A DNA stretch of 16,843 nt. Source: Candidatus Thorarchaeota archaeon. GTDB taxonomy: Archaea; Asgardarchaeota; Thorarchaeia; Thorarchaeales; Thorarchaeaceae. Where the stretch lies: positions 1 through 16,843 of the forward strand of contig JBHLQH010000054.1 in NCBI GenBank assembly GCA_048884965.1, given 5' to 3'. Of the stretch, positions 7,959 to 16,843 are shown in pieces. The first letter of the stretch is position 1, and the number at the start of each line of letters is the position of its first letter. Position numbers and translations under genes: made by a program. Below the pieces are notes generated by a model. The model was not told the origin of the DNA and searched no databases. It saw only the letters and a list, made by a program, of their open reading frames with translations.

Positions 7959-7982
7959 GTTCAGTATCTCTAGGTGAGTGAT

Positions 7983-8429
7983 ATGAAATCGATAAACTCT
8001 GATATCGCATCTGAACTTCTTATGATAATGGATGAGCAAAGAGTAGCTGTTCTGACGACTATGGGCAAGCAGTTTCCATATTCGTGCCTCGTATCCTTCG
8101 ACGTTTCTCGAGATATAGATTATCTATTCTTTGCGACGAAGAGGAAACGTCAGAAGTTCGAGAATATCATGAAAGATCCCCGTGTTGCTTTGGTCATTGA
8201 TGATCGAGATAACACTGATTTCAGCCTTCATGGAACAAATGTGATCTCTTTATCTGGAATTGCTGAAGACTATCAAGGAGAGGATTTACAGCTTCTTCTT
8301 CAATCCCTCGAGAAAAAACATCCATACCTAAAGGATTTCCTCAAAAGCGAGGATACATCTTTGATTCGAGTTATGATTGATACAATCTACTTAGTCGATA
8401 ATTTTGAACGAGTAAGACGCTTCGAGTAG
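7983..8429 (+). CDS. Pyridoxamine 5'-phosphate oxidase-like flavin-binding split-barrel protein
   Basis: VAVLTT...PYSCLVSF...LFFATKRKRQKFENIMKDPRVALVID pattern. ATG at 7983 follows a GGTGA RBS; alternative start GTG 7974. Confidence 0.88.
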   Translation: MKSINSDIASELLMIMDEQRVAVLTTMGKQFPYSCLVSFDVSRDIDYLFFATKRKRQKFENIMKDPRVALVIDDRDNTDFSLHGTNVISLSGIAEDYQGEDLQLLLQSLEKKHPYLKDFLKSEDTSLIRVMIDTIYLVDNFERVRRFE

Positions 8430-8772
8430 AGATGAATTCGAGGTTGGGGTGAGGTGCTCCGACAGTTTGAGTAGACGGGTGGCTACTCCTCTCTCTATCT
8501 CCATTCCCCATTTTGCAAGGCTATCGAAGCACCTGACTCGCGAACATCTTGAGAATACCTGAAAGAATACTCTTCGGAAACAACCAACAGTTTTCGGTGT
8601 TCACGAATCCCGTATTCACCCCGGTTCTCTCTCGACTTCTTCCAGTACACTTCCAAAAGACAAAGATGAATTACTCTCTTGTTGTGCTCTTAGATACACA
8701 TAGGCACTGGATATCCCTAGAATTCTTGTCTAGAGGGCTGAAGGTGGGTGTACCACCTTTCATGCCTTTGGA
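8430..8772 (-). ncRNA. Candidate structured RNA (about 340 nt, core 8436-8636) of unknown family; either a 3' UTR element of the NIF3 gene or an independent ncRNA
   Basis: Manual pairing on the minus strand gives GGGGUG/CACCCC (8617-8622 with 8446-8451), a 14-bp helix AGGUGCUUCGAUAG/CUGUCGGAGCACCU (8521-8534 with 8452-8465), a 12-bp helix GAUUCGUGAACA/UGUUCGCGAGUC (8598-8609 with 8535-8546), and nested hairpins. Imperfections in the long helices are G-U on the minus strand. Confidence 0.6.
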
Positions 8773-9726
8773 CTAGATTCGTTTGTGTCTAAACAGCCCT
8801 GAACAAGTGTAGGCTTTCAATCCCCGCTTCTCCAACTCATCAAGAATAAGATTCATTCCAATCGAGTCAGAACTGTCATGACCAGCAATAACAACATAGA
8901 GACCTTCCTCTTCGCATTCTTTCTTGAGGTTCTCTGCCATGTGCATCGTGATGATAGTGCTGATACCCGCACGTGCTAGAACCTTGATAGCCTTGGGTCC
9001 TGGCGAGGTCCCACCGGTGAAGAAGACGAATTTCTCACCAACGCTTCCTGCTTCACTGCCAACTATAATCTCAGGTCCCGCACCGACTTTCTCCGCCTCT
9101 TGATACTCTGGAATCTCAAGGAGTGTTTCAACCAAATCTCCTAGCGTATCTGGTTCCTTATCCTTTAGATAGGACATAAGATACTGATAACCCATTGAGT
9201 CAGCAGGAGTATGAGCACATAGGAATGCCATATCAATCAATCTTGCGGCATCGATGGTTTGCGTGTGATTACTTGGTTTGGTAGCAAGATGAACTTCCTT
9301 CAATCTTGGTGCCATTGCTGATTCTGCCTGAGCGATAGGAACCCCAAAGGTCGCCCATTGTTCTGGTTGAAGCTTCATAACAAAATCCAGATTGGATGTA
9401 CCTATACCATGAGGATGATGGGCGAAGACTAGATCGATCTTGCTTCCTTTGCTTTCCAATATGTCAGCTAAGGCAATTTCTCCTGGGGTGATGTCGATTC
9501 CCGCGAGGACAGAGTTGATTTCTCTCTCTGGTTCTCCATAAAGGAGTCTACAATCAGTGTATGGATTCCAAGCCACATCCTTGTCAGCAAGCTCCTTCTT
9601 TTTGCCTGTCAGTTTCTCAAGCTTGCTCTTGGATTTCTCCAACACTTTGTTGACTTTCTCTTTTCCTCTGGGATCTGCATCTATTCCCAGTTCAACGATC
9701 ATTCGATAGATTTCCCCGAGTTTCAT
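8773..9726 (-). CDS. NIF3/DUF34-like (NGG1p-interacting factor 3) metal-binding protein
   Basis: MKLGEIY...GIDADPRG N-terminus, NPYTD, GIDI, AHHP (metal His pair), HTPAD, TGGT, MHM, AGHDSSDSIGMN. ATG 9726 is the likely start; the track's extension to 9798 overlaps the divergent intergenic region. Confidence 0.87.
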   Translation of the reverse strand: MKLGEIYRMIVELGIDADPRGKEKVNKVLEKSKSKLEKLTGKKKELADKDVAWNPYTDCRLLYGEPEREINSVLAGIDITPGEIALADILESKGSKIDLVFAHHPHGIGTSNLDFVMKLQPEQWATFGVPIAQAESAMAPRLKEVHLATKPSNHTQTIDAARLIDMAFLCAHTPADSMGYQYLMSYLKDKEPDTLGDLVETLLEIPEYQEAEKVGAGPEIIVGSEAGSVGEKFVFFTGGTSPGPKAIKVLARAGISTIITMHMAENLKKECEEEGLYVVIAGHDSSDSIGMNLILDELEKRGLKAYTCSGLFRHKRI

Positions 9727-9825
9727 ATGTTTTTGCAATCCAAGCATCACTTTGAACCTTCCGGACCACGCTGCATGAAGACTTATCTGGCAGAACATTG
9801 CTGCTTCTTCAAAGGTGTATCAATC

Positions 9826-10680
9826 ATGAACGATGATGAGAAACGTGGCGGTCGGACCATCTACAGAATGCTCGCACAGGATCTTTATAGGACGAACCTT
9901 CATGGAGATGAGGTTGGGATAAGGCAAGTGGAGCAGTGGCGCTCACGTAGTAGACAGTTTACCAAGGATGCTGATATCATAGGTAGTATTTCCGAAGCTC
10001 GAATCAAGTCCGAAGGTGAACGTCTACCACCTATGGAGAAGTCAGGCTTTATCATATTGCGACAATCTATGTGGCGAGATGAACCAACAGAGATGCAACG
10101 AAGATTTGTTATCAAGATGTTCACGGAGTCTGGAGGATGGTTAGCAACGATGGAAGAGATGGTTGCGGACTCTCTTGCCATGAGCTTTGCAATGGATGAA
10201 TCTGTTCTCAATTTCGCTATCATGACACAGGAGAACGAGCTGGTCACCTATATCCGCCAGATGTATAGGGGGGGTCTCGCCACAGAAACCTATGGTTTCT
10301 ATCTAATAGGTCCTGATGGTAACTTTGAGGTATTCAGAATAGAGGGGAAGCGAGCTACTGCAGGCGACGACTTCAAGGTCATTCTTCTATCACGCAAGAC
10401 TGAGGTTGCTGAGATTGATAGTAAGTTTGGAGATATCGGTGGCGAGTTCGTGGTTAAAATCAAGGATGAGATACTAGCGCGAAACGATTGGTTCTGTAGG
10501 ATTCTCCAATGCTTCTCTATTGTGATCAGGTTCCGACTTGAGATACGAGAACGCATGAAGAAACGACTGGAAGGCTGGCAGAGAACCGGTGAAGGGCATC
10601 CTCAGCATCGTTACGAGCTCTCCTTGCTCGCAAATCCAAGGAAGTTAACCCTTAATAGAGCAGAGTTCGAAGAGGTGTAG
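9826..10680 (+). CDS. Hypothetical protein, possibly Tubby C-terminal/LURP-one/scramblase-like fold
   Basis: Likely start ATG 9826 (MNDDEKRGG) after AGGTG. The C-terminal half FRIEGK...GDDFKV...VAEIDSKFGDIGGEFVVKI plus a hydrophobic helix resembles LURP-one/Tubby-C proteins. The fold call is inference. Confidence 0.75.
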   Translation: MNDDEKRGGRTIYRMLAQDLYRTNLHGDEVGIRQVEQWRSRSRQFTKDADIIGSISEARIKSEGERLPPMEKSGFIILRQSMWRDEPTEMQRRFVIKMFTESGGWLATMEEMVADSLAMSFAMDESVLNFAIMTQENELVTYIRQMYRGGLATETYGFYLIGPDGNFEVFRIEGKRATAGDDFKVILLSRKTEVAEIDSKFGDIGGEFVVKIKDEILARNDWFCRILQCFSIVIRFRLEIRERMKKRLEGWQRTGEGHPQHRYELSLLANPRKLTLNRAEFEEV

Positions 10681-10716: not shown

Positions 10717-10761
10717 CGCAAAGGTTTTATCTATACACTGACTTAATGACAGAAAGAGGTG
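10717..10761 (+). promoter_or_regulatory. Putative BRE/TATA promoter and RBS of the 10771 gene
   Basis: Purine-rich GCAAAGG immediately followed by TTTTATCTATA (10725-10735), then GAGGTG (10756-10761) 9 nt before ATG 10771. Confidence 0.5.
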
Positions 10762-10770
10762 CGCGTGCCC

Positions 10771-13137
10771 ATGACAAATGGGAGGAGATTAGTACTATCC
10801 ATAATAATGATATCTGTTCTCCTTATCGGACCTACTCTAGGAATTGTCCGCGCCGCATACTTACCATATGCGCACGTGACCCATACCCAGAGTTTCGATA
10901 GGGCAGAAAATAATCACACCTATGTTTACGTAGGTGATAATCAAAACAATTGGTATATGAATAGATTTCTTAATCATGAGGAAGATATTTCATACGACTA
11001 CTATAGCTATGGTAGAACATCTTGGTTTGATAGTTCTGGCAGTTATGATGGACCAGCTGATAGATCGTTCGATTGGTCTGCTGGCGATTCCGCAAGCTGG
11101 GGATGGTATTGTGATTCCCAATTATTACCAAGATTCTACGACTTCACAACTGAACATAGTGATTCCTATATTGGTGCGACACAGTTCTATGAAGTATTCC
11201 CGCTTCCTTTGAATGTAGAAAACACACTTCTAATTCAACCCGGGTACATCTATCTTGGGACATTCAATGTGACTGACGAGGAGTTCTTCCATATGACAGT
11301 CACTAGTCATCAAGATGATCTCGAAATGGGTTGGCTCATTCTTGACTATGAATATAGAGGTATCGCAGAATGGGGACTCGACAATGGTGATATTGAGGTT
11401 ACTGCCTTCCCTTCAATGGGCAATGGTACATATTATGTACTTTTCAGCATGGGCAGTGGTGACCAAGCTCAAGTTCCGATTGATATTCTCATCGAACCAG
11501 TTGTTCCTGAAACTATTGGTTTTGGCGAGATCGTAGAGGGTAATCTACCAGGCTCTGAATACAAGATTACTGAAGATGGCTCTTGGATCTACGAAGAGAT
11601 GCGACCAAATGTTCACACCTATAAATTCAGCACTAATTCAACTGAATATGGCTGCCTTACTTTTGGCATGAACTATCCTGGTGGAATGATGTATTCCTAC
11701 GATTCATTCGCATGGATTACAAGCAACATCTGGTACGATAGCTCCATGGACTATGCATGGGGCTATGATCCAAGCATGCCAAGTGATGTATTCTATTATA
11801 CATCCTTCGGAAATGAAACCTATTACATCACAGTTCAGGGAATGGACAACATCGACTACTACATTATGAATGAGTTAGCGAACATTCCTGAATTACCTGT
11901 TAATGAGGAATTCTTCATTCAGAATTGGCAGAGCATAGATTGGTATCAAAAACCATATTTACTCAATCTTGGACAGGACTCTGTTCTTCGACTCAATAGA
12001 ACCGAGTGGTCCAGTGGTTTTGATTGGCAGTTTTGGACCTTCAAGGACAATGGACTAGTAGATACACTATCAATCGGTGAAGCAGGAACCTTCGAGACAG
12101 CATCAACAATTTATCTCCCTGCTGGAGAGTATTTGGTTACTGCAAGAGCTCAAAGTACAGCAGCAAGCGGTTTGTATGAATTCAATATAGGACCAGTGAT
12201 TGAAGGTGTAGGTAATGTGAATGTGGATAATGGACGTCTTGTTGGAATGAGAGTTCCAGTCGAAACGATGTCGTTCTATCGCAGCAATATCACACTACTA
12301 AACCACGAGAATCTCTCGGTCTTGGTTGATGTGGACTTCATCAATGAATGCGGTCTTAATGAATATGCTACACTTGCTAGTATCGGAAACCAACAGTCTG
12401 GTACAAGCTGGGTTGCATATGGTGTGAATACCACTAGTTGGGAACTTGGACTCTACACTTCAAGCTACACTCAGTTCTGTGAAGGAAATCTCATTATTGT
12501 TGTAGCACCACATGCTATGGCGAACAATACTGGCGGCGGTAGCATTCCATACTATCAACGCTCCGCTGATTTCCGTGTTACTTTCGATGAGGATGCTGAT
12601 AGGATACTAACAGATGAACAATCTGTGAATGTTGGTGACGAACTTGTCTGGGCCAACTTCACACTCGATGCAACTGGAGAGAATGATGAGCTCTATGTCG
12701 TCAGAATGAGTGTTGCAACAGGTGTCTGGATGAATCTATCCATCTATGGTGAGGATATGGATGATTTGGATATCTATCTCTACCAGAACATGGATGGATG
12801 TCCGATCTATCTTCCATGGACAGACCTCGATGATACTCTTACAGGCACTATCACTACTGAAGCTTCAATCCAATTTGGTAGTGCCAGTAGTGAGATTCTC
12901 ATCGTTTTCGATGTGGACCGAACACTTTCAGATGAAGGTAGATTGGATATTGGTATCCAAACCTTCATGACGAACTCCTTCGAGTGGCTACCCATTCCTG
13001 ACTACTACCACTATGGTACTGTACCCGGACCAGCTCCCGCACCCTTTGATCCAGTACTAGCTGTTGGTGCAGTCGCTGTCATTGGCATTGTAGTAGTAGT
13101 TGTTGTGGTCATCCTAAAGAAGAAAGGCACCATCTAG
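10771..13137 (+). CDS. Large secreted, C-terminally membrane-anchored surface glycoprotein with multiple beta-sandwich-like domains
   Basis: Signal peptide MTNGRRLVLSIIMISVLLIGPTLGIVRA. Acidic, Tyr/Trp-rich body with recurring GTYYV/ETYYI/GEYLV strands and many N-x-S/T sequons. Ends in a Pro-rich linker, TM helix and KKK. Confidence 0.88.
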   Translation: MTNGRRLVLSIIMISVLLIGPTLGIVRAAYLPYAHVTHTQSFDRAENNHTYVYVGDNQNNWYMNRFLNHEEDISYDYYSYGRTSWFDSSGSYDGPADRSFDWSAGDSASWGWYCDSQLLPRFYDFTTEHSDSYIGATQFYEVFPLPLNVENTLLIQPGYIYLGTFNVTDEEFFHMTVTSHQDDLEMGWLILDYEYRGIAEWGLDNGDIEVTAFPSMGNGTYYVLFSMGSGDQAQVPIDILIEPVVPETIGFGEIVEGNLPGSEYKITEDGSWIYEEMRPNVHTYKFSTNSTEYGCLTFGMNYPGGMMYSYDSFAWITSNIWYDSSMDYAWGYDPSMPSDVFYYTSFGNETYYITVQGMDNIDYYIMNELANIPELPVNEEFFIQNWQSIDWYQKPYLLNLGQDSVLRLNRTEWSSGFDWQFWTFKDNGLVDTLSIGEAGTFETASTIYLPAGEYLVTARAQSTAASGLYEFNIGPVIEGVGNVNVDNGRLVGMRVPVETMSFYRSNITLLNHENLSVLVDVDFINECGLNEYATLASIGNQQSGTSWVAYGVNTTSWELGLYTSSYTQFCEGNLIIVVAPHAMANNTGGGSIPYYQRSADFRVTFDEDADRILTDEQSVNVGDELVWANFTLDATGENDELYVVRMSVATGVWMNLSIYGEDMDDLDIYLYQNMDGCPIYLPWTDLDDTLTGTITTEASIQFGSASSEILIVFDVDRTLSDEGRLDIGIQTFMTNSFEWLPIPDYYHYGTVPGPAPAPFDPVLAVGAVAVIGIVVVVVVVILKKKGTI

Positions 13138-13342: not shown

Positions 13343-16300
13343 TTATGTTTGTTTCTTCTTCAGGAAGAGTACTACAACAACGATTACAATTGCAGCTCCA
13401 GCAATTCCCGCTACTAGGAGTATCAATCCAACATCAAGAGGTGGTGGTGGTGTTATTTCAGGAATGACCCGTAGTACTGTGATGGTGACAGAATCACTAG
13501 CTGAATTTCCACTACCATCATATACCGTAATGGCAAAGGTATGTGTTCCAATGGTCAAGCCATCCACATTCACAAGAACTCTGCTTCCTCCCCACGGGCT
13601 TTCAACATAGGTAGTACCATTGTAGCTCACAACCAAGTGAGAGGGGTATTCGTCCTCCGCTATCCATGTGATTACATTGCCTGTTTCTCCACGATAGTAG
13701 CTAAAGTCATCTGGGCTGTCTATTGTTGGATCAACATCGTCATCGATGCAGAGTATCTGAACGACATCTTGTGCTGTGTTGCCATCGATATCATAGATGA
13801 TGGTTATGAGAGTATGTTCTCCCTCAGTCATACCATCGACATTGACCACAAGGTTTCCACTTGTCCAGCCACCACTATCCCATTCTACCTCATCGACGTA
13901 GACGATGTAGTTATCTGGATGAAGGTCAGATACTTTCCAGCTCAATGTCTGACCGCTTCCACCGACGAATACCCAAGCATTTGGCGTATTGCTGATATAT
14001 GGAGCGGTACCATCAAAGACATGGATCAGAACTGTGTCCTCAACGGAATTCTGATCAACATCCCACAGAGTCACGATAACCTCGTGGATCCCATATGGAA
14101 GTCCATCGACGTTGATCTTGATACTGGTGTAGTTCCAAGCATCCTCACTCCAAAGAGAGCCATCAATCTCAACCTCCCAATCCCGAAGTGAGTCGTCATA
14201 GGCAAACCACTCGATGAAGTTGCCTTCAGAGCCTTCAGCATAGTAGATATCTTGAGGTTGGCTGATGATTGGCTCTGTAGGAGCATACAACATCGGATAT
14301 CTGTCCTGAGAGCTTCCTGTCCCATAGATATTATATACAGCTGGAGGTGAAGCATCGTCCCACCAATTACCCGTATCAACTCCATCATCCCAGTATTTGA
14401 AGTTAGCATCTCCGCCATTATGATTACGGTTGAGTGCAATTATGTTGTAGTAAACCTCCGAACCAGTAGAACCGGTTAAGTAAACTCCGTAGTTCTCATT
14501 CCATCTGATGCTGTTGTTTCTTATACTAATATAATCACCTGCACTGACCCATATACCATCCTCATTGTTCTCTATAGTATTCAAGGTGATGTTAATATAA
14601 TCTGCACCTGCCTGATTGATCCAAATCCCGTGATCACTGCAATACATTATTACATTGTTATGAATCGTCCAATTATCTGCATTATATGCAGTAATTCCAG
14701 CTGTAGCATTCAGGATTAGATTATCCATAACACGAACATAATTGGTACCTGTGTTCATGACATATATTCCACTTTGCTCAGTGTTGAGAATCTCATTGTT
14801 GGAAATCAAAGTGTCTACAGGTGAATCCAAGAAGATACCATACTCATTTCCTTCAAACAGACAACCATTGATGAACAGGTCCGTTGTATGGAAACCGTAG
14901 AATCCATCAATACTGTCTGCTCTCCTTCCATACTTTATCTCGGAATCTAGAAGACTCATATTTGTACCATAGAGGTTCGCTATTGCACCAGAGTAATCTG
15001 ATCCATGGTGCGTGAAATCTTGGATTGAGACATTGTCTACAAAGAGGAATAGCATGCCATAGTAGTTGCTACTTGTGACAATATTCCAGATATCGACATT
15101 CGCACTAAATGCTGCTTCAATTGGTACTGTCACGAGTCCAAAGGTGTTATCATGGATATCAACCCACGAGTTGTTGACCAGAAAGATTTGTCCATAATCA
15201 CTTGCTAATATGTCAATTCCATTCGCATCTGGATTATAGTAGATTGGAAGGCCATTTACAGTGTTGTTCTCAACAAGATGATAGTATTCAGGCATCGCTC
15301 CATTATCGAAAAAGAACCCGCAATCGGTAAGCGTATTCTCAATGATGACACAATCTAATAGGTTGTCGCCAAATACTCCGATGAGAGGAGCTGAGCCAAT
15401 TGTATTGTAGGAGATTACACCATATATCATGTTTTGAACACTAATTCCTAACTCTCTAGTATTGGTGACAGTATTGCTCTCTACTGTCCCATTATTGATT
15501 GTGAGACCAACAATACCTGAGTCGGCATCATCAATCGTATTACCAATAATCATAACACGCATACAGGTTTGGACATACACACCTTGGTTATCAATTTCGA
15601 AGATTTGATTATTGGAAATAGTGGAGTTGGGTGAACTGTATAGGTTAATGCCTTCGTTTGCGACATTAACGATGTTATTCTCGATAACTGTATTGATACC
15701 AGTATCAAAACTTATCCCCACATTATCCACATATTCGATTACATTGTCCATGATGGTCCAATTGTATGAAGCTTGGAGCTCAATACCTGTCCCATCTACG
15801 TATCCCACGTATGAATTCGTTATAGTACCGTTGTTGCAATTTGTGAGAAACACACCATAATCATCAAACAAGTTGGTTATTGTATTGCCATCAAAAGTGA
15901 CGAAATCGCAATCATCAAAATCATATCCTCTTTCAATAACATTATCCATCGTATTCCCAATCACACTGATATTATTCGAGTTTGAGAAACCGACACCATC
16001 GGTGCCGATATTCTCTATCTCGTTGTCATGGAAGGTGACATTATTCGAAAATGCGAAGCTAACACCGTAATCGTTTGGTGCTGTGATGTAACAATGTGTT
16101 ATTGCGATATTGTCTGTGCTATCAATATCAAGTCCTGGTCCGTCATTGCTATCAAGAATGCAGGATGAAATAATAATATTCGATCCACCTTCGGTTTGGA
16201 TTCCACCTGAACCGTTATTATACATTCCAGTTATGCTCACATCGTAGCTGTATCTAGTATAGAAGGAATATCCTGTAATTATAGTATCATCAACACTAGT

Positions 16301-16843
16301 TGTGCCATTGCAGTATTCAAGATATGCACTATACCAACCATCACTATTATCCCACAGATTACTCTCAAACAAGATATTACTTGAGTAGTAGCCATATATT
16401 CCCCGAAACTCAGAATGAAATTCGTTCCCAGTTAATTGACAATCATATGAATGGAACAAATTCACAGCATAACCATTGACAGTAGCACCGGAGAATATGA
16501 CATTATGATCGAGAATTGTATCATTCGAATTATAACAATATACCCCATCCTTTTGCGAAGTTATTGTGTTGTACTCGACTACTGCTGCTGTTGTGTTCCT
16601 AATATATATGGCATGAGTCGTATCTCCCTGATTTATCCAACAGTCACGAATGATGAATGATGCATATGTATTCTGAATGCTTATCATATACATTCCCAGA
16701 TCTTGCGTGATATTCAATCCCGCTATGATGTAAGGATCCGCAGGTGTGCCAGAGCCTGGCCAGCCCTGCAAACCAAAATCTGCAGTCCCATCTATCTCGA
16801 TGGGGACATGGTCTGTAAGGTCTCCGGGATCAAGTCTTGTACC
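13343..16843 (-). CDS. Large surface protein, 5'-truncated: right-handed parallel beta-helix (NosD/PbH1-type) repeats, three Ig-like repeats and a C-terminal TM anchor
   Basis: The frame stays open from 16771 to the window edge (GTRLDPGDLTDHVPIEIDGTADFGLQGWPGSGTPADPYII), so the true start lies outside the window. Many GIxL..sxNxxIxxNxI coils, GNWWDD/DRYPM cap, three approximately 90-aa repeats, then PPPP-TM-KKK. Confidence 0.92.
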   Translation of the reverse strand, partial: GTRLDPGDLTDHVPIEIDGTADFGLQGWPGSGTPADPYIIAGLNITQDLGMYMISIQNTYASFIIRDCWINQGDTTHAIYIRNTTAAVVEYNTITSQKDGVYCYNSNDTILDHNVIFSGATVNGYAVNLFHSYDCQLTGNEFHSEFRGIYGYYSSNILFESNLWDNSDGWYSAYLEYCNGTTSVDDTIITGYSFYTRYSYDVSITGMYNNGSGGIQTEGGSNIIISSCILDSNDGPGLDIDSTDNIAITHCYITAPNDYGVSFAFSNNVTFHDNEIENIGTDGVGFSNSNNISVIGNTMDNVIERGYDFDDCDFVTFDGNTITNLFDDYGVFLTNCNNGTITNSYVGYVDGTGIELQASYNWTIMDNVIEYVDNVGISFDTGINTVIENNIVNVANEGINLYSSPNSTISNNQIFEIDNQGVYVQTCMRVMIIGNTIDDADSGIVGLTINNGTVESNTVTNTRELGISVQNMIYGVISYNTIGSAPLIGVFGDNLLDCVIIENTLTDCGFFFDNGAMPEYYHLVENNTVNGLPIYYNPDANGIDILASDYGQIFLVNNSWVDIHDNTFGLVTVPIEAAFSANVDIWNIVTSSNYYGMLFLFVDNVSIQDFTHHGSDYSGAIANLYGTNMSLLDSEIKYGRRADSIDGFYGFHTTDLFINGCLFEGNEYGIFLDSPVDTLISNNEILNTEQSGIYVMNTGTNYVRVMDNLILNATAGITAYNADNWTIHNNVIMYCSDHGIWINQAGADYINITLNTIENNEDGIWVSAGDYISIRNNSIRWNENYGVYLTGSTGSEVYYNIIALNRNHNGGDANFKYWDDGVDTGNWWDDASPPAVYNIYGTGSSQDRYPMLYAPTEPIISQPQDIYYAEGSEGNFIEWFAYDDSLRDWEVEIDGSLWSEDAWNYTSIKINVDGLPYGIHEVIVTLWDVDQNSVEDTVLIHVFDGTAPYISNTPNAWVFVGGSGQTLSWKVSDLHPDNYIVYVDEVEWDSGGWTSGNLVVNVDGMTEGEHTLITIIYDIDGNTAQDVVQILCIDDDVDPTIDSPDDFSYYRGETGNVITWIAEDEYPSHLVVSYNGTTYVESPWGGSRVLVNVDGLTIGTHTFAITVYDGSGNSASDSVTITVLRVIPEITPPPPLDVGLILLVAGIAGAAIVIVVVVLFLKKKQT
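13470..14272 (-). repeat. Three tandem approximately 90-aa Ig-like repeats within the beta-helix protein
   Basis: Units start near 14272 (PIISQPQD), 14002 (PYISNTPN) and 13729 (PTIDSPDD). Each shares G-[NQ]-x-[IL]-x-W...D...W......NVDG[LM]xxGxH......D.x.N...D.V.I. Confidence 0.85.

What the first reader, a model, noticed from the sequence alone, without database searches (positions are those of the whole stretch)
8436..8636. Unannotated, densely folded ~200-nt RNA domain on the minus strand downstream of NIF3
Seen in sequence (minus strand, by manual pairing). A closing helix GGGGUG/CACCCC (8617-8622/8446-8451), extended by UCGAG/CUCGA (8631-8635/8438-8442), leads to a three-way junction. There a 12-bp helix (8598-8609/8535-8546) abuts a 14-bp helix (8521-8534/8452-8465), which abuts the closing helix with no unpaired linker nucleotides. 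Each long helix is itself capped by two hairpins. The first carries CGAAAAC/GUUUCCG (8590-8596/8575-8581, one mismatch) and AGAGUAUU/GGUAUUCU (8566-8573/8552-8559). The second carries CCUUG/UGGGG (8516-8520/8506-8510) and GAGUAG/CUACUC (8483-8488/8469-8474). About ten non-Watson-Crick positions are G-U on the minus strand but would be A-C on the plus strand, the pattern expected for selection on RNA structure rather than a DNA palindrome. It lies in the largest intergenic gap of the window, between convergent genes where no promoter for either is needed. Inference: a functional ncRNA, ribozyme or 3' cis-element. I cannot match it to RNase P, SRP, 5S, tRNA, SECIS or a riboswitch I know.
Basis: partly seen in the sequence, partly recalled or inferred. 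Interest (0 to 1): 0.85.

Follow-up and report, generated by a model that had tools for sequence, protein, structure and literature searches.

The report
New structured small RNA in Thorarchaeota
The flagged stretch is a real, previously undescribed ~190-nt folded RNA gene found in two genera of Thorarchaeota (Asgard archaea); its helices are kept by compensating mutations and it turns up in environmental RNA libraries, but its function is still unknown.

Summary

- **Not a known family.** It matches no Rfam family. It is single copy, non-coding, and is not 5S, RNase P or SRP RNA, which all lie elsewhere in the genome.
- **Conserved.** Homologs sit at the same locus in 6 of 7 genomes of the genus and 2 of 2 of a second genus. 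None was found in 15 other genera of the class.
- **Structure supported.** Helix B and the base of helix A covary. In a 4-sequence alignment 97% of cells pair, against 37-54% in slid controls. In helix B, 62 of 62 cells pair across 8 genomes.
- **Variable parts.** Helix A is absent in two genomes and the small hairpins are not conserved. The invariant parts are two purine (GA) tracts and an upstream palindrome.
- **Expression hint.** Four metatranscriptomes from four studies each hold one short contig covering only 8446-8636. This suggests a discrete, stable RNA.
- **NIF3 link is incidental.** The RNA persists where the adjacent NIF3 gene is lost, and NIF3 usually lacks the RNA.

Function is unknown. 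My best guess is a trans-acting RNA or RNP scaffold that works through the GA tracts. This scan has only first-reader notes on this same window and has not found it on other DNA.

The parts
8446..8636 (-). The RNA itself (~190 nt), 5' GUCGAGAGAGAACC... to ...CUCACCCC 3'
   Evidence: The MFE fold gives a three-way junction. One contig in each of 4 metatranscriptomes spans 8446/8453 to 8619/8636 and nothing beside it. CM R1 finds homologs over its full length.
8623..8636 (-). 5' single-stranded GA tract (GUCGAGAGAGAACC); the core GAGAGAGA is invariant
   Evidence: GAGAGAGAA is invariant in 7 of 8 homologs; G007 has GAGAGAGAU. It is unpaired in the MFE of the mature RNA.
8616..8622 (-). Closing helix P1, 5' strand (GGGGUGA); pairs with 8446-8452 (UCACCCC)
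   Evidence: Identical in G000, G001 and G004, reduced to GGGG/CUCC in G005, and not recognisable in G003 or G006.
8535..8609 (-). Helix A domain: a 12-bp stem (8598-8609/8535-8546) carrying hairpins A1 (8575-8596) and A2 (8552-8573)
   Evidence: 3 of 12 stem pairs show double compensatory changes. A2 is missing in G004. The whole domain is missing in G003 and G006 and is a plain 11-12-bp hairpin in genus g2.
8453..8533 (-). Helix B domain: a 13-bp stem (8521-8533/8453-8465) enclosing hairpin B1, the conserved loop tract and hairpin B2
   Evidence: 7 of 13 pairs covary in the 4-sequence alignment. In the 8 basal pairs, 62 of 62 cells are standard pairs in 8 genomes, with 3-4 pair types at positions 3-8.
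8489..8506 (-). Conserved purine-rich junction strand GAAUGGAGAUAGAGAGAG
   Evidence: UGGAGAUAGAGAG is identical in 5 of 6 genus-g1 genomes. G004 has the diverged CUGAAAACAGAAAGGAG, and g2 has GAGUAGAGGGAAC or AAGUAGAGGGAAC.
8469..8488 (-). Hairpin B2 (GAGUAG/CUACUC)
   Evidence: Present in G000 and G001 with one compensatory pair, A-U to G-C. Not alignable in the others.
8507..8520 (-). Hairpin B1 (CCU/GGG), weak
   Evidence: 3 bp in the MFE. Broken by C>A changes at 8519 and 8520 in the contigs of X10 and X17. Only 78% of cells pair.
8680..8701 (-). Upstream invariant palindrome/hairpin AUGUGU-N8-10-(R)CACAAC
   Evidence: Present in all 8 homologs, starting 61-72 nt before the GA tract (measured from the 5' A of AUGUGU to the first GAGAGAG). 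The stem is invariant, so it gives no covariation evidence. It is not covered by the RNA contigs.
8637..8679 (-). Spacer with a candidate weak BRE/TATA (CAAGAGAG-UAAUUCAU, 8664-8679) before the RNA 5' end
   Evidence: The block G(A/U)GUAAU is conserved in 4 genomes. It sits where the genome's own ncRNA and tRNA promoters have their TATA box, 23-29 nt before the mature 5' end. Inference only.
8773..9726 (-). NIF3/DUF34 gene upstream on the same strand (neighbour, not part of the RNA)
   Evidence: Pfam and NCBIfam hits. Orthologs at 70-88% identity across Thorarchaeota. Lost at this locus in G001, G004 and G005.
7974..8429 (+). PNPOx-like gene, convergent; its stop codon lies 17 nt from the RNA 3' end (neighbour)
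   Evidence: A convergent PNPOx or fumarase gene follows the RNA in all 8 genomes.

Best explanation
This is an independent, single-copy gene for a stable ~190-nt structured non-coding RNA, specific to two Thorarchaeota genera. The RNA is a scaffold of covarying helices: a closing helix, an optional helix A domain and a constant helix B domain. The scaffold displays two invariant purine-rich single strands, the 5' tail CGAGAGAGAA and the junction strand UGGAGAUAGAGAGA. I infer that it acts in trans and that the GA tracts are the working surfaces. Most likely they are docking sites for a protein, making the RNA an RNP scaffold or a sequestering RNA. Alternatively they pair with CU-rich RNA. Transcription probably starts at about 8636-8643 from a weak promoter of its own, controlled through the conserved upstream palindrome. 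What is shown: the structure, its conservation and covariation, single copy, non-coding status, no known family, and presence in RNA libraries as a discrete piece. What is inferred: the promoter, action in trans, and the role of the GA tracts.
For: - **Fold.** The structure is reproduced, with z = -2.6 on the minus strand and -1.8 on the plus strand. The sense strand has the lower z in 6 of 8 homologs.
- **No known family.** No Rfam match at gathering score or at E<=10.
- **Covariation.** 97.1% of cells pair, against 37-54% for slid controls. 12 pairs have changes on both sides, against 0-4 in the controls. In helix B, 62 of 62 cells pair across 8 genomes, with 3-4 pair types per position. Many G-U pairs fit only the minus strand.
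- **Synteny.** The syntenic position is the same in 8 genomes, always followed by a convergent gene. In 3 genomes it is directly preceded by a divergent gene, so there it cannot be a 3' UTR.
- **Expression.** Four metatranscriptomes from four studies each hold one 163-191-nt contig at 95-99% identity that ends at the folded domain. The coding flanks have no cover, while DNA assemblies run through.
- **Variants.** Variant positions in those contigs lie in loops or keep pairing as G-U, except in the weak B1 hairpin.
- **GA tracts.** They are invariant while the helices around them change.
- **Promoter.** The conserved upstream block sits where this genome's ncRNA promoters have BRE/TATA. In genus g2 a terminator-like hairpin separates the NIF3 stop from the palindrome.
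Against: - No partner protein or target RNA was identified, and nothing in the neighbourhood co-occurs strictly with the RNA.
- The promoter candidate is far from the genome's own TATA consensus.
- In G003 and G006 only 12-21 nt separate the NIF3 stop from the palindrome. Co-transcription with NIF3 followed by processing therefore remains possible.
- In G003 and genus g2 the 5' GA tract can pair with a CU-rich 3' strand, so it may not be free in all members.
- The contigs cannot show strand, true ends or expression level, and they come from close relatives, not shown to be this strain.
- Only 8 sequences exist, from related genomes, and the alignment used for counting was fitted to the model.
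- The narrow distribution allows for a dispensable function.
Confidence: 0.45

Rival explanations
1. It is a base-pairing regulatory sRNA. The invariant GA tracts are seed regions that pair with CU-rich stretches of mRNAs, for example the CU arms of the GA/CU 3' hairpins common in this lineage, and change their stability or termination.
For: Conserved single-stranded tracts at the 5' end and in a loop are typical seed placements. GA-arm/CU-arm hairpins follow genes in these genomes. One, after a rubrerythrin gene on contig C17, shares 18 nt with the loop tract.
Against: That 18-nt identity is not kept in the orthologous 3' hairpins of relatives. Complements of the tracts have no specially placed matches in the genome; GAGAGAGAA is mostly coding. 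A 190-nt multi-helix scaffold is more elaborate than most antisense sRNAs. No target prediction across genomes was run.
Confidence: 0.22
2. It is a processed 3' part of the NIF3 transcript. It would be a 3'UTR-derived RNA or cis element that stabilises, terminates or insulates transcripts between convergent genes. Where NIF3 was deleted, it would be driven by the old NIF3 promoter.
For: It lies on the same strand directly after NIF3 in 5 of 8 genomes, with only 12-21 nt between the stop codon and the conserved palindrome in G003 and G006. In NIF3-less genomes the GATAAGT motif of the NIF3/P0001 intergenic region lies 24-80 nt upstream of the palindrome. The convergent gene's stop codon is only 15-76 nt from the RNA end, so the convergent gene's transcript has almost no room to end before reaching the RNA gene.
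Against: The RNA is kept in three genomes that lost this NIF3. NIF3 in other genera, and even in the closest relatives, has a simple hairpin or another gene after it. Invariant single-stranded tracts and a 190-nt covarying scaffold exceed what a terminator needs. The RNA-library contigs do not include NIF3 sequence. The scan found no terminator-like site.
Confidence: 0.15
3. It is a self-cleaving or otherwise catalytic RNA whose cleavage produces the discrete ends.
For: It is a compact multi-helix junction with sharp apparent ends at the base of the fold. A conserved upstream leader is absent from the RNA contigs.
Against: No ribozyme family matches even at E<=10. The junction-joining strands vary between close relatives: AAUACG, AAUGAAU, GCUCGC, ACUUAU. 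Helix A and the closing helix are dispensable in G003 and G006. No pseudoknot partner exists for the 5' tail in the mature RNA.
Confidence: 0.04
4. It is a transcribed, structured but functionally neutral remnant, such as a decayed mobile-element end or an expanded terminator hairpin, fixed at this locus in two genera.
For: The distribution is narrow. Large parts are gained or lost between species. The GA/CU composition resembles the local terminator hairpins.
Against: It is single copy, with no repeats in the genome and no match in phage, plasmid or IMG/VR collections. Compensatory substitutions and invariant tracts over two genera imply purifying selection.
Confidence: 0.1

Closest known systems
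5S rRNA (Rfam RF00001), including archaeal 5S with expansion segments
   Same: A small, abundant RNA. A three-way junction is closed by pairing of the 5' and 3' regions, with two arms stacked on it. It is readily seen in total-RNA libraries.
   Different: A canonical 5S gene lies elsewhere, on contig C7 at 63.7 bits. There is no RF00001 hit here even at E<=10. This RNA has a 14-nt 5' tail. Identity within one genus is only 68-79%, and a whole arm is lost in two species, which is unthinkable for 5S.
Protein-sequestering sRNAs (bacterial CsrB/RsmZ type, 6S RNA). Functional analogy from general knowledge, not tested.
   Same: A stable, abundant, structured sRNA whose conserved elements are short purine-rich single strands (here containing GGA/GAG) presented on variable helices.
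   Different: There are only two tracts rather than many. No CsrA homolog is expected in archaea, and there is no 6S-like long bubble helix. No partner is known and there is no sequence relation.
Archaeal housekeeping RNAs of similar size (RNase P RNA RF00373, SRP RNA RF01857)
   Same: Structured, single copy, with its own gene in an intergenic gap, and expressed.
   Different: Both are present elsewhere in this genome. None of their conserved regions is present here, and this RNA is confined to two genera.
3'UTR-derived or processed sRNAs of bacteria and archaea (general class)
   Same: It lies directly after a co-oriented gene in 5 of 8 genomes. It is a discrete stable species shorter than the conserved region.
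   Different: It is kept where the upstream gene is gone. In genus g2 a terminator-like hairpin and a promoter-like block lie between the gene and the RNA.

Membership tests
Any Rfam 15 family (4227 models) | Covariance-model score at or near the family's gathering threshold | tested here: not met
   No match in the window at gathering score. No match in 8380-8820 at E<=10 on either strand.
5S rRNA | Match to RF00001, and being the genome's 5S gene | tested here: not met
   The canonical 5S is at C7:31768-31886, 63.7 bits. Nothing is found here.
RNase P RNA / SRP RNA | Match to RF00373 or RF01857 | tested here: not met
   Both are found elsewhere: C16 at 157 bits and C50 at 84.5 bits. There is no hit at this locus.
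tRNA / tRNA-like | Cloverleaf detected by ARAGORN | tested here: not met
   0 genes in the window.
C/D box or H/ACA guide sRNA | C (RUGAUGA) and D (CUGA) boxes near the ends, or an ACA box 3 nt from the 3' end after a pocket hairpin | tested here: not met
   No C box in any of 8 homologs. CUGA occurs only in G004. The 3' ends read ...CACCCC or ...GCCCUCC, without ACA.
Repeat / MITE / mobile-element end | Multiple copies in the genome, or matches in mobile-element collections | tested here: not met
   One copy in G000 by BLAST and by CM. No match in IMG/VR, phages or plasmids. The syntenic position is fixed.
Small protein-coding gene | An ORF conserved in frame among homologs | tested here: not met
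   The longest ORFs are 46-75 aa. The 46-aa frame starting at 8511 hits a stop after 8 codons in G005 and has no AUG in G004. The 53-aa frame lies in helix A, which is deleted in G003 and G006. Conservation shows no 3-nt periodicity.
Riboswitch / 5' leader | Lies upstream of, and on the same strand as, the gene it controls | tested here: not met
   The next gene downstream is convergent in all 8 genomes.
Archaeal transcription terminator or intrinsic-terminator-like site | A short hairpin and/or a T-run at the gene's end | tested here: not met
   No terminator-like site in 8300-8900. The element is 190 nt long with invariant unpaired tracts.
Known self-cleaving ribozymes (hammerhead, HDV-like, twister, pistol, hatchet ...) | Conserved catalytic core in the junction strands, and a family CM match | tested here: not met
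   No CM match. The junction strands vary between species. Catalysis itself is not testable with these tools.
Structured ncRNA under selection (generic) | Compensatory base changes that keep the helices in homologs | tested here: met
   12 pairs have double changes, against 0-4 in slid controls, and 97% of cells pair. In helix B, 62 of 62 cells pair over 8 genomes.
Expressed RNA | A transcript of the right strand and size in RNA data | tested here: inconclusive
   RNA-library contigs from 4 studies cover exactly the domain and not the flanks. However, contigs give no strand, exact ends or level, and they come from 95-99% relatives.

The most novel reading that the evidence does not exclude
The RNA is the core of a Thorarchaeota-specific ribonucleoprotein. 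A dedicated, still unidentified protein would read the two GA tracts, possibly folded against each other through tandem G-A pairs. The RNP would carry out a cellular function, such as regulation of translation or RNA turnover, with no described archaeal counterpart. The upstream palindrome would be the operator that switches it on.
Probability: 0.12. Interest if true: 0.75.

Novelty: new member of a known kind. Interest (0 to 1): 0.5.

Why it matters
Asgard archaea are central to ideas on the origin of eukaryotes, yet almost nothing is known about their non-coding RNAs. My two literature searches found no described Asgard or Thorarchaeota ncRNA of this kind.

This is a concrete orphan RNA family backed by covariation, with evidence of presence in RNA libraries from several habitats. 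It has defined ends, conserved single-stranded tracts and a candidate operator. It is therefore ready for Rfam-style curation and for pull-down or probing experiments. Its narrow range of two genera limits the general impact unless a partner or function of wider interest emerges.

Tried and rejected
- **Known RNA families.** Rfam at gathering score and at E<=10 gave nothing. 5S, RNase P and SRP RNAs all lie elsewhere. ARAGORN found nothing.
- **Repeat or mobile element.** It is single copy. There were no matches in IMG/VR, phages or plasmids.
- **JGI metagenome contigs.** Two pattern scans gave 0 matches. This says only that this collection lacks those exact patterns.
- **Genome contigs pattern scan.** It returned only the G001 and G004 contigs plus one chance Anaerolineales hit.
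- **Improved models.**
  - The short helix-B model R2 found only its own training sequences and missed the positive controls G004 and genus g2. Its negative result in other genera therefore carries little weight.
  - Its G017 hit (E = 0.056) was not pursued.
- **Closest NIF3 relatives.** Contigs with NIF3 at 81-88% identity (L071-L075) have no RNA downstream. The PNPOx route gave only identical copies of the same population.
- **Coding.** Rejected.
- **Shine-Dalgarno mimic.** GGAG/AGGAG within the loop tract is not kept in G004 or g2, judged by inspection. Rejected.
- **K-turn, C/D, H/ACA, hammerhead and HDV-like.** Motif inspection was negative (and manual reading).
- **Paralog on C17.** The 18-nt identity is a terminator-like GA/CU hairpin, and the identity is not conserved in relatives.
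- **GA tract elsewhere in the genome.** GAGAGAGAA has 124 occurrences, mostly coding, with no shared context.
- **Leader region.** No structure beyond the invariant 5-bp hairpin.
- **Profilin as an Asgard marker.** The search was uninformative; the control rang nowhere.
- **RNA flank cover.** The absence of RNA contigs over the flanks is used only as a hint, together with the DNA assemblies that run through.

Full report
**Observation**

RNAfold returns the same architecture as the minimum-energy structure. A closing helix GGGGUGA/UCACCCC leads to a three-way junction. Helix A (12 bp) carries two hairpins, and helix B (13-14 bp) carries two more. The energy is -68.5 kcal/mol, z = -2.61, and 1 of 200 dinucleotide shuffles folds as well. 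The plus strand scores z = -1.84, and my own shuffles agree. Energy alone is only modest evidence. The weight comes from comparison with relatives.

**What it is not**

- **Rfam:** no match at gathering score in the whole window, and none at E<=10 in 8380-8820 on either strand.
- **Housekeeping RNAs:** the genome's RNase P RNA, SRP RNA and canonical 5S rRNA lie on other contigs. ARAGORN finds no tRNA in the window.
- **Repeat or mobile element:** the sequence is single copy in the 4.09-Mb assembly. It has no relative in IMG/VR, phage or plasmid collections.
- **Coding:** the short ORFs in the gap are not conserved. The frame from the AUG at 8511 stops after 8 codons in G005 and lacks the AUG in G004. 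The frame through helix A is deleted in G003 and G006.
- **Guide RNA:** no C/D or ACA boxes are present.

**Homologs and covariation**

BLAST, a single-sequence covariance model (R1) and a pattern built from conserved blocks together find the element in eight genomes. These are six of seven genomes of the window's genus (G000, G001, G003, G004, G005, G006) and both genomes of a second genus (G007, G022). No convincing match appears in the other 15 genera of the class, which has 87 species genomes.

In the model-guided alignment of four members:

- 97.1% of cells form standard pairs, against 37-54% when the 3' partners are slid.
- 12 pairs have changes on both sides, against 0-4 in the slid controls.
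- 7 of 13 helix B pairs and 3 of 12 helix A pairs covary.

Anchoring the eight basal pairs of helix B in all eight genomes gives 62 of 62 standard pairs, with three or four pair types at positions 3-8. Many pairs alternate with G-U, which fits only the minus strand.

Three caveats apply. There are only eight related sequences. The alignment was fitted to the model. The refined short model R2 missed its positive controls, so its negative results elsewhere mean little.

**Conserved and variable parts**

*Conserved:*
- Helix B.
- The junction strand UGGAGAUAGAGAGA inside it (8489-8506). It is GAGUAGAGGGAAC or AAGUAGAGGGAAC in the second genus and diverged in G004.
- The 5' tract CGAGAGAGAA (8623-8636).

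*Variable:*
- Hairpin A2 is absent in G004.
- The whole helix A domain and the GGGGUG/CACCCC closing helix are absent in G003 and G006, giving a ~100-nt mini form.
- The second genus has a plain 11-12-bp hairpin in place of helix A.
- B1 is weak, and B2 is shared only by G000 and G001.
- The strands joining the helices at the junction differ between species, which argues against a catalytic core.

The family's core, however, is helix B plus the two GA tracts.

**Neighbourhood**

The locus is syntenic. On one side is fumarase, usually with a PNPOx-like gene, always convergent with the RNA. On the other side is a conserved 284-aa hypothetical protein (P0001) transcribed divergently. Between P0001 and the RNA, five genomes have NIF3 on the RNA's strand: G000, G003, G006, G007 and G022. 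G001, G004 and G005 have lost that NIF3 and keep only a paralog at 38% identity elsewhere, yet they retain the RNA.

Conversely, the P0001/NIF3 pair is family-wide. In other genera NIF3 is followed by a simple hairpin and unrelated genes. Metagenomic contigs with the closest NIF3 relatives (81-88% identity) also have no RNA after the gene. The NIF3 link is therefore positional, not functional. Names given by sources to the NIF3 homologs, and the atlas cluster of P0001, place the genome in Candidatus Thorarchaeota.

**Expression**

An index search found the stretch in public runs. I laid four RNA libraries from four studies on 8250-8950: rhizosphere, freshwater sediment, marine sediment and sediment. 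Each holds exactly one contig, 163-191 nt long and 95-99% identical. The four contigs span 8447-8636, 8446-8630, 8453-8624 and 8486-8619. Each contig aligns essentially end to end, with only adapter or a few end letters left over. There is no cover on the PNPOx or NIF3 coding flanks.

DNA assemblies of the same population run straight through. Differences from the window lie in loops (8481, 8516, 8589, an insertion after 8510), keep pairing as G-U (8522), or hit the weak B1 hairpin (8519, 8520).

Contigs cannot give strand, exact ends or abundance, and they come from close relatives. This is a hint, not proof, of a discrete stable ~190-nt RNA whose ends coincide with the folded domain.

**Upstream region**

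An invariant palindrome or hairpin, AUGUGU-N8-10-(R)CACAAC (8680-8701), starts a fixed 61-72 nt before the GA tract in all eight genomes, measured from its 5' A to the first GAGAGAG. No other structure is conserved in between. The RNA contigs do not cover it.

This genome's own tRNA, 5S, SRP and RNase P genes show a clear TATA box (sTTTAAAA-like) ending 23-29 nt before the mature 5' end, preceded by AAG(C/G). At the corresponding place before 8636 lies the conserved CAAGAGAG-UAAUUCAU, a weak match.

In the second genus a terminator-like hairpin separates the NIF3 stop from the palindrome. I therefore favour a gene with its own, probably factor-dependent, promoter and the palindrome as its operator. 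Co-transcription with NIF3 and processing is not excluded. In G003 and G006 only 12-21 nt separate the stop codon from the palindrome. In NIF3-less genomes the old NIF3-side promoter motif GATAAGT lies 24-80 nt upstream.

**Mechanism**

*Shown:*
- A conserved, covarying, single-copy, non-coding structured RNA.
- Its presence in RNA libraries.

*Inferred:* it acts in trans through the two invariant purine tracts. My preferred reading is a protein-binding scaffold or sequestering RNA. The reasons are that an elaborate scaffold with replaceable arms presents short invariant single strands, and no complementary partner stands out in the genome.

The main rival is antisense pairing with CU-rich RNA. 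GA-arm/CU-arm hairpins are common at gene ends in this lineage, and one shares 18 nt with the loop tract. That identity is not conserved in relatives, however. In G003 and the second genus the 5' tract can pair with a CU-rich 3' strand, so its accessibility may differ between members. The cis-element, ribozyme and neutral-remnant readings are less likely, for the reasons listed under the rival explanations.

**Verdict**

This is a genuine new RNA family of narrow range, of the known general kind 'lineage-specific structured small RNA', with function unknown. It deserves curation and simple bench tests. It does not by itself overturn anything.

Noticed in passing
window 9826-10680 (+): P0001 is a ~284-aa hypothetical protein with no Pfam or NCBIfam hit. 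It is present in all 16 genera of the family (52-77% identity) and is always divergent from NIF3 or from the RNA. The atlas gives only weak leads to Tubby C-terminal/LOR/scramblase-like folds. The listed ORF start at 9727 is probably too early: homologs align from about residue 34.
   Followed up: partly
window 8773-9798 (-): The NIF3 ORF is probably over-extended at its 5' end. Homologs are 317 aa and align from residue 23-25 (MKLGEIY, about 9726). The conserved GATAAGT promoter-region motif lies inside the extension, at about 9787.
   Followed up: partly
window 8702-8772 (-): Two hairpins lie right after the NIF3 stop codon: GGUGG-UACA-CCACC-like and CCCUCUAGA/UCUAGGG. They are not conserved in relatives. 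Genus g2 has a GGAGGAGGG.../...CCCUCC hairpin at the same place. They are likely 3'-end structures of NIF3.
   Followed up: partly
G000 contig C17:51600-51700 (locus L003 1470-1530, minus strand): An 18-nt identity to the RNA's loop tract (AUGGAGAUAGAGAGAGG) forms the GA arm of a GA/CU hairpin after a rubrerythrin gene. Orthologs in 5 relatives also end in GA-arm/CU-arm hairpins of different sequence. This may be a lineage-typical 3'-end structure.
   Followed up: partly
G000 contig C4 (tRNA list): A tandem array of at least 17 tRNA genes with very short spacers (His, Trp, Met, Pro, Glu, Gly, Gln, Tyr, Val, Lys, Arg, Asn, Ser, Asp ...). This is unusual for an archaeal chromosome.
   Followed up: no
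G000 ncRNA and tRNA genes: There is a clear promoter consensus for stable-RNA genes of this Thorarchaeon: AAG(C/G)-TTTAAAA (or TTTTTAKG), ending 23-29 nt before the mature 5' end.
   Followed up: no
window 10759-13137 (+) and 13343-16771 (-): The first is a 792-aa protein with an N-terminal signal-like segment, a C-terminal membrane anchor and no family hit. The second is a 1142-aa parallel beta-helix/NosD-like protein with Ig-like C-terminal domains. Both are probably surface proteins.
   Followed up: no
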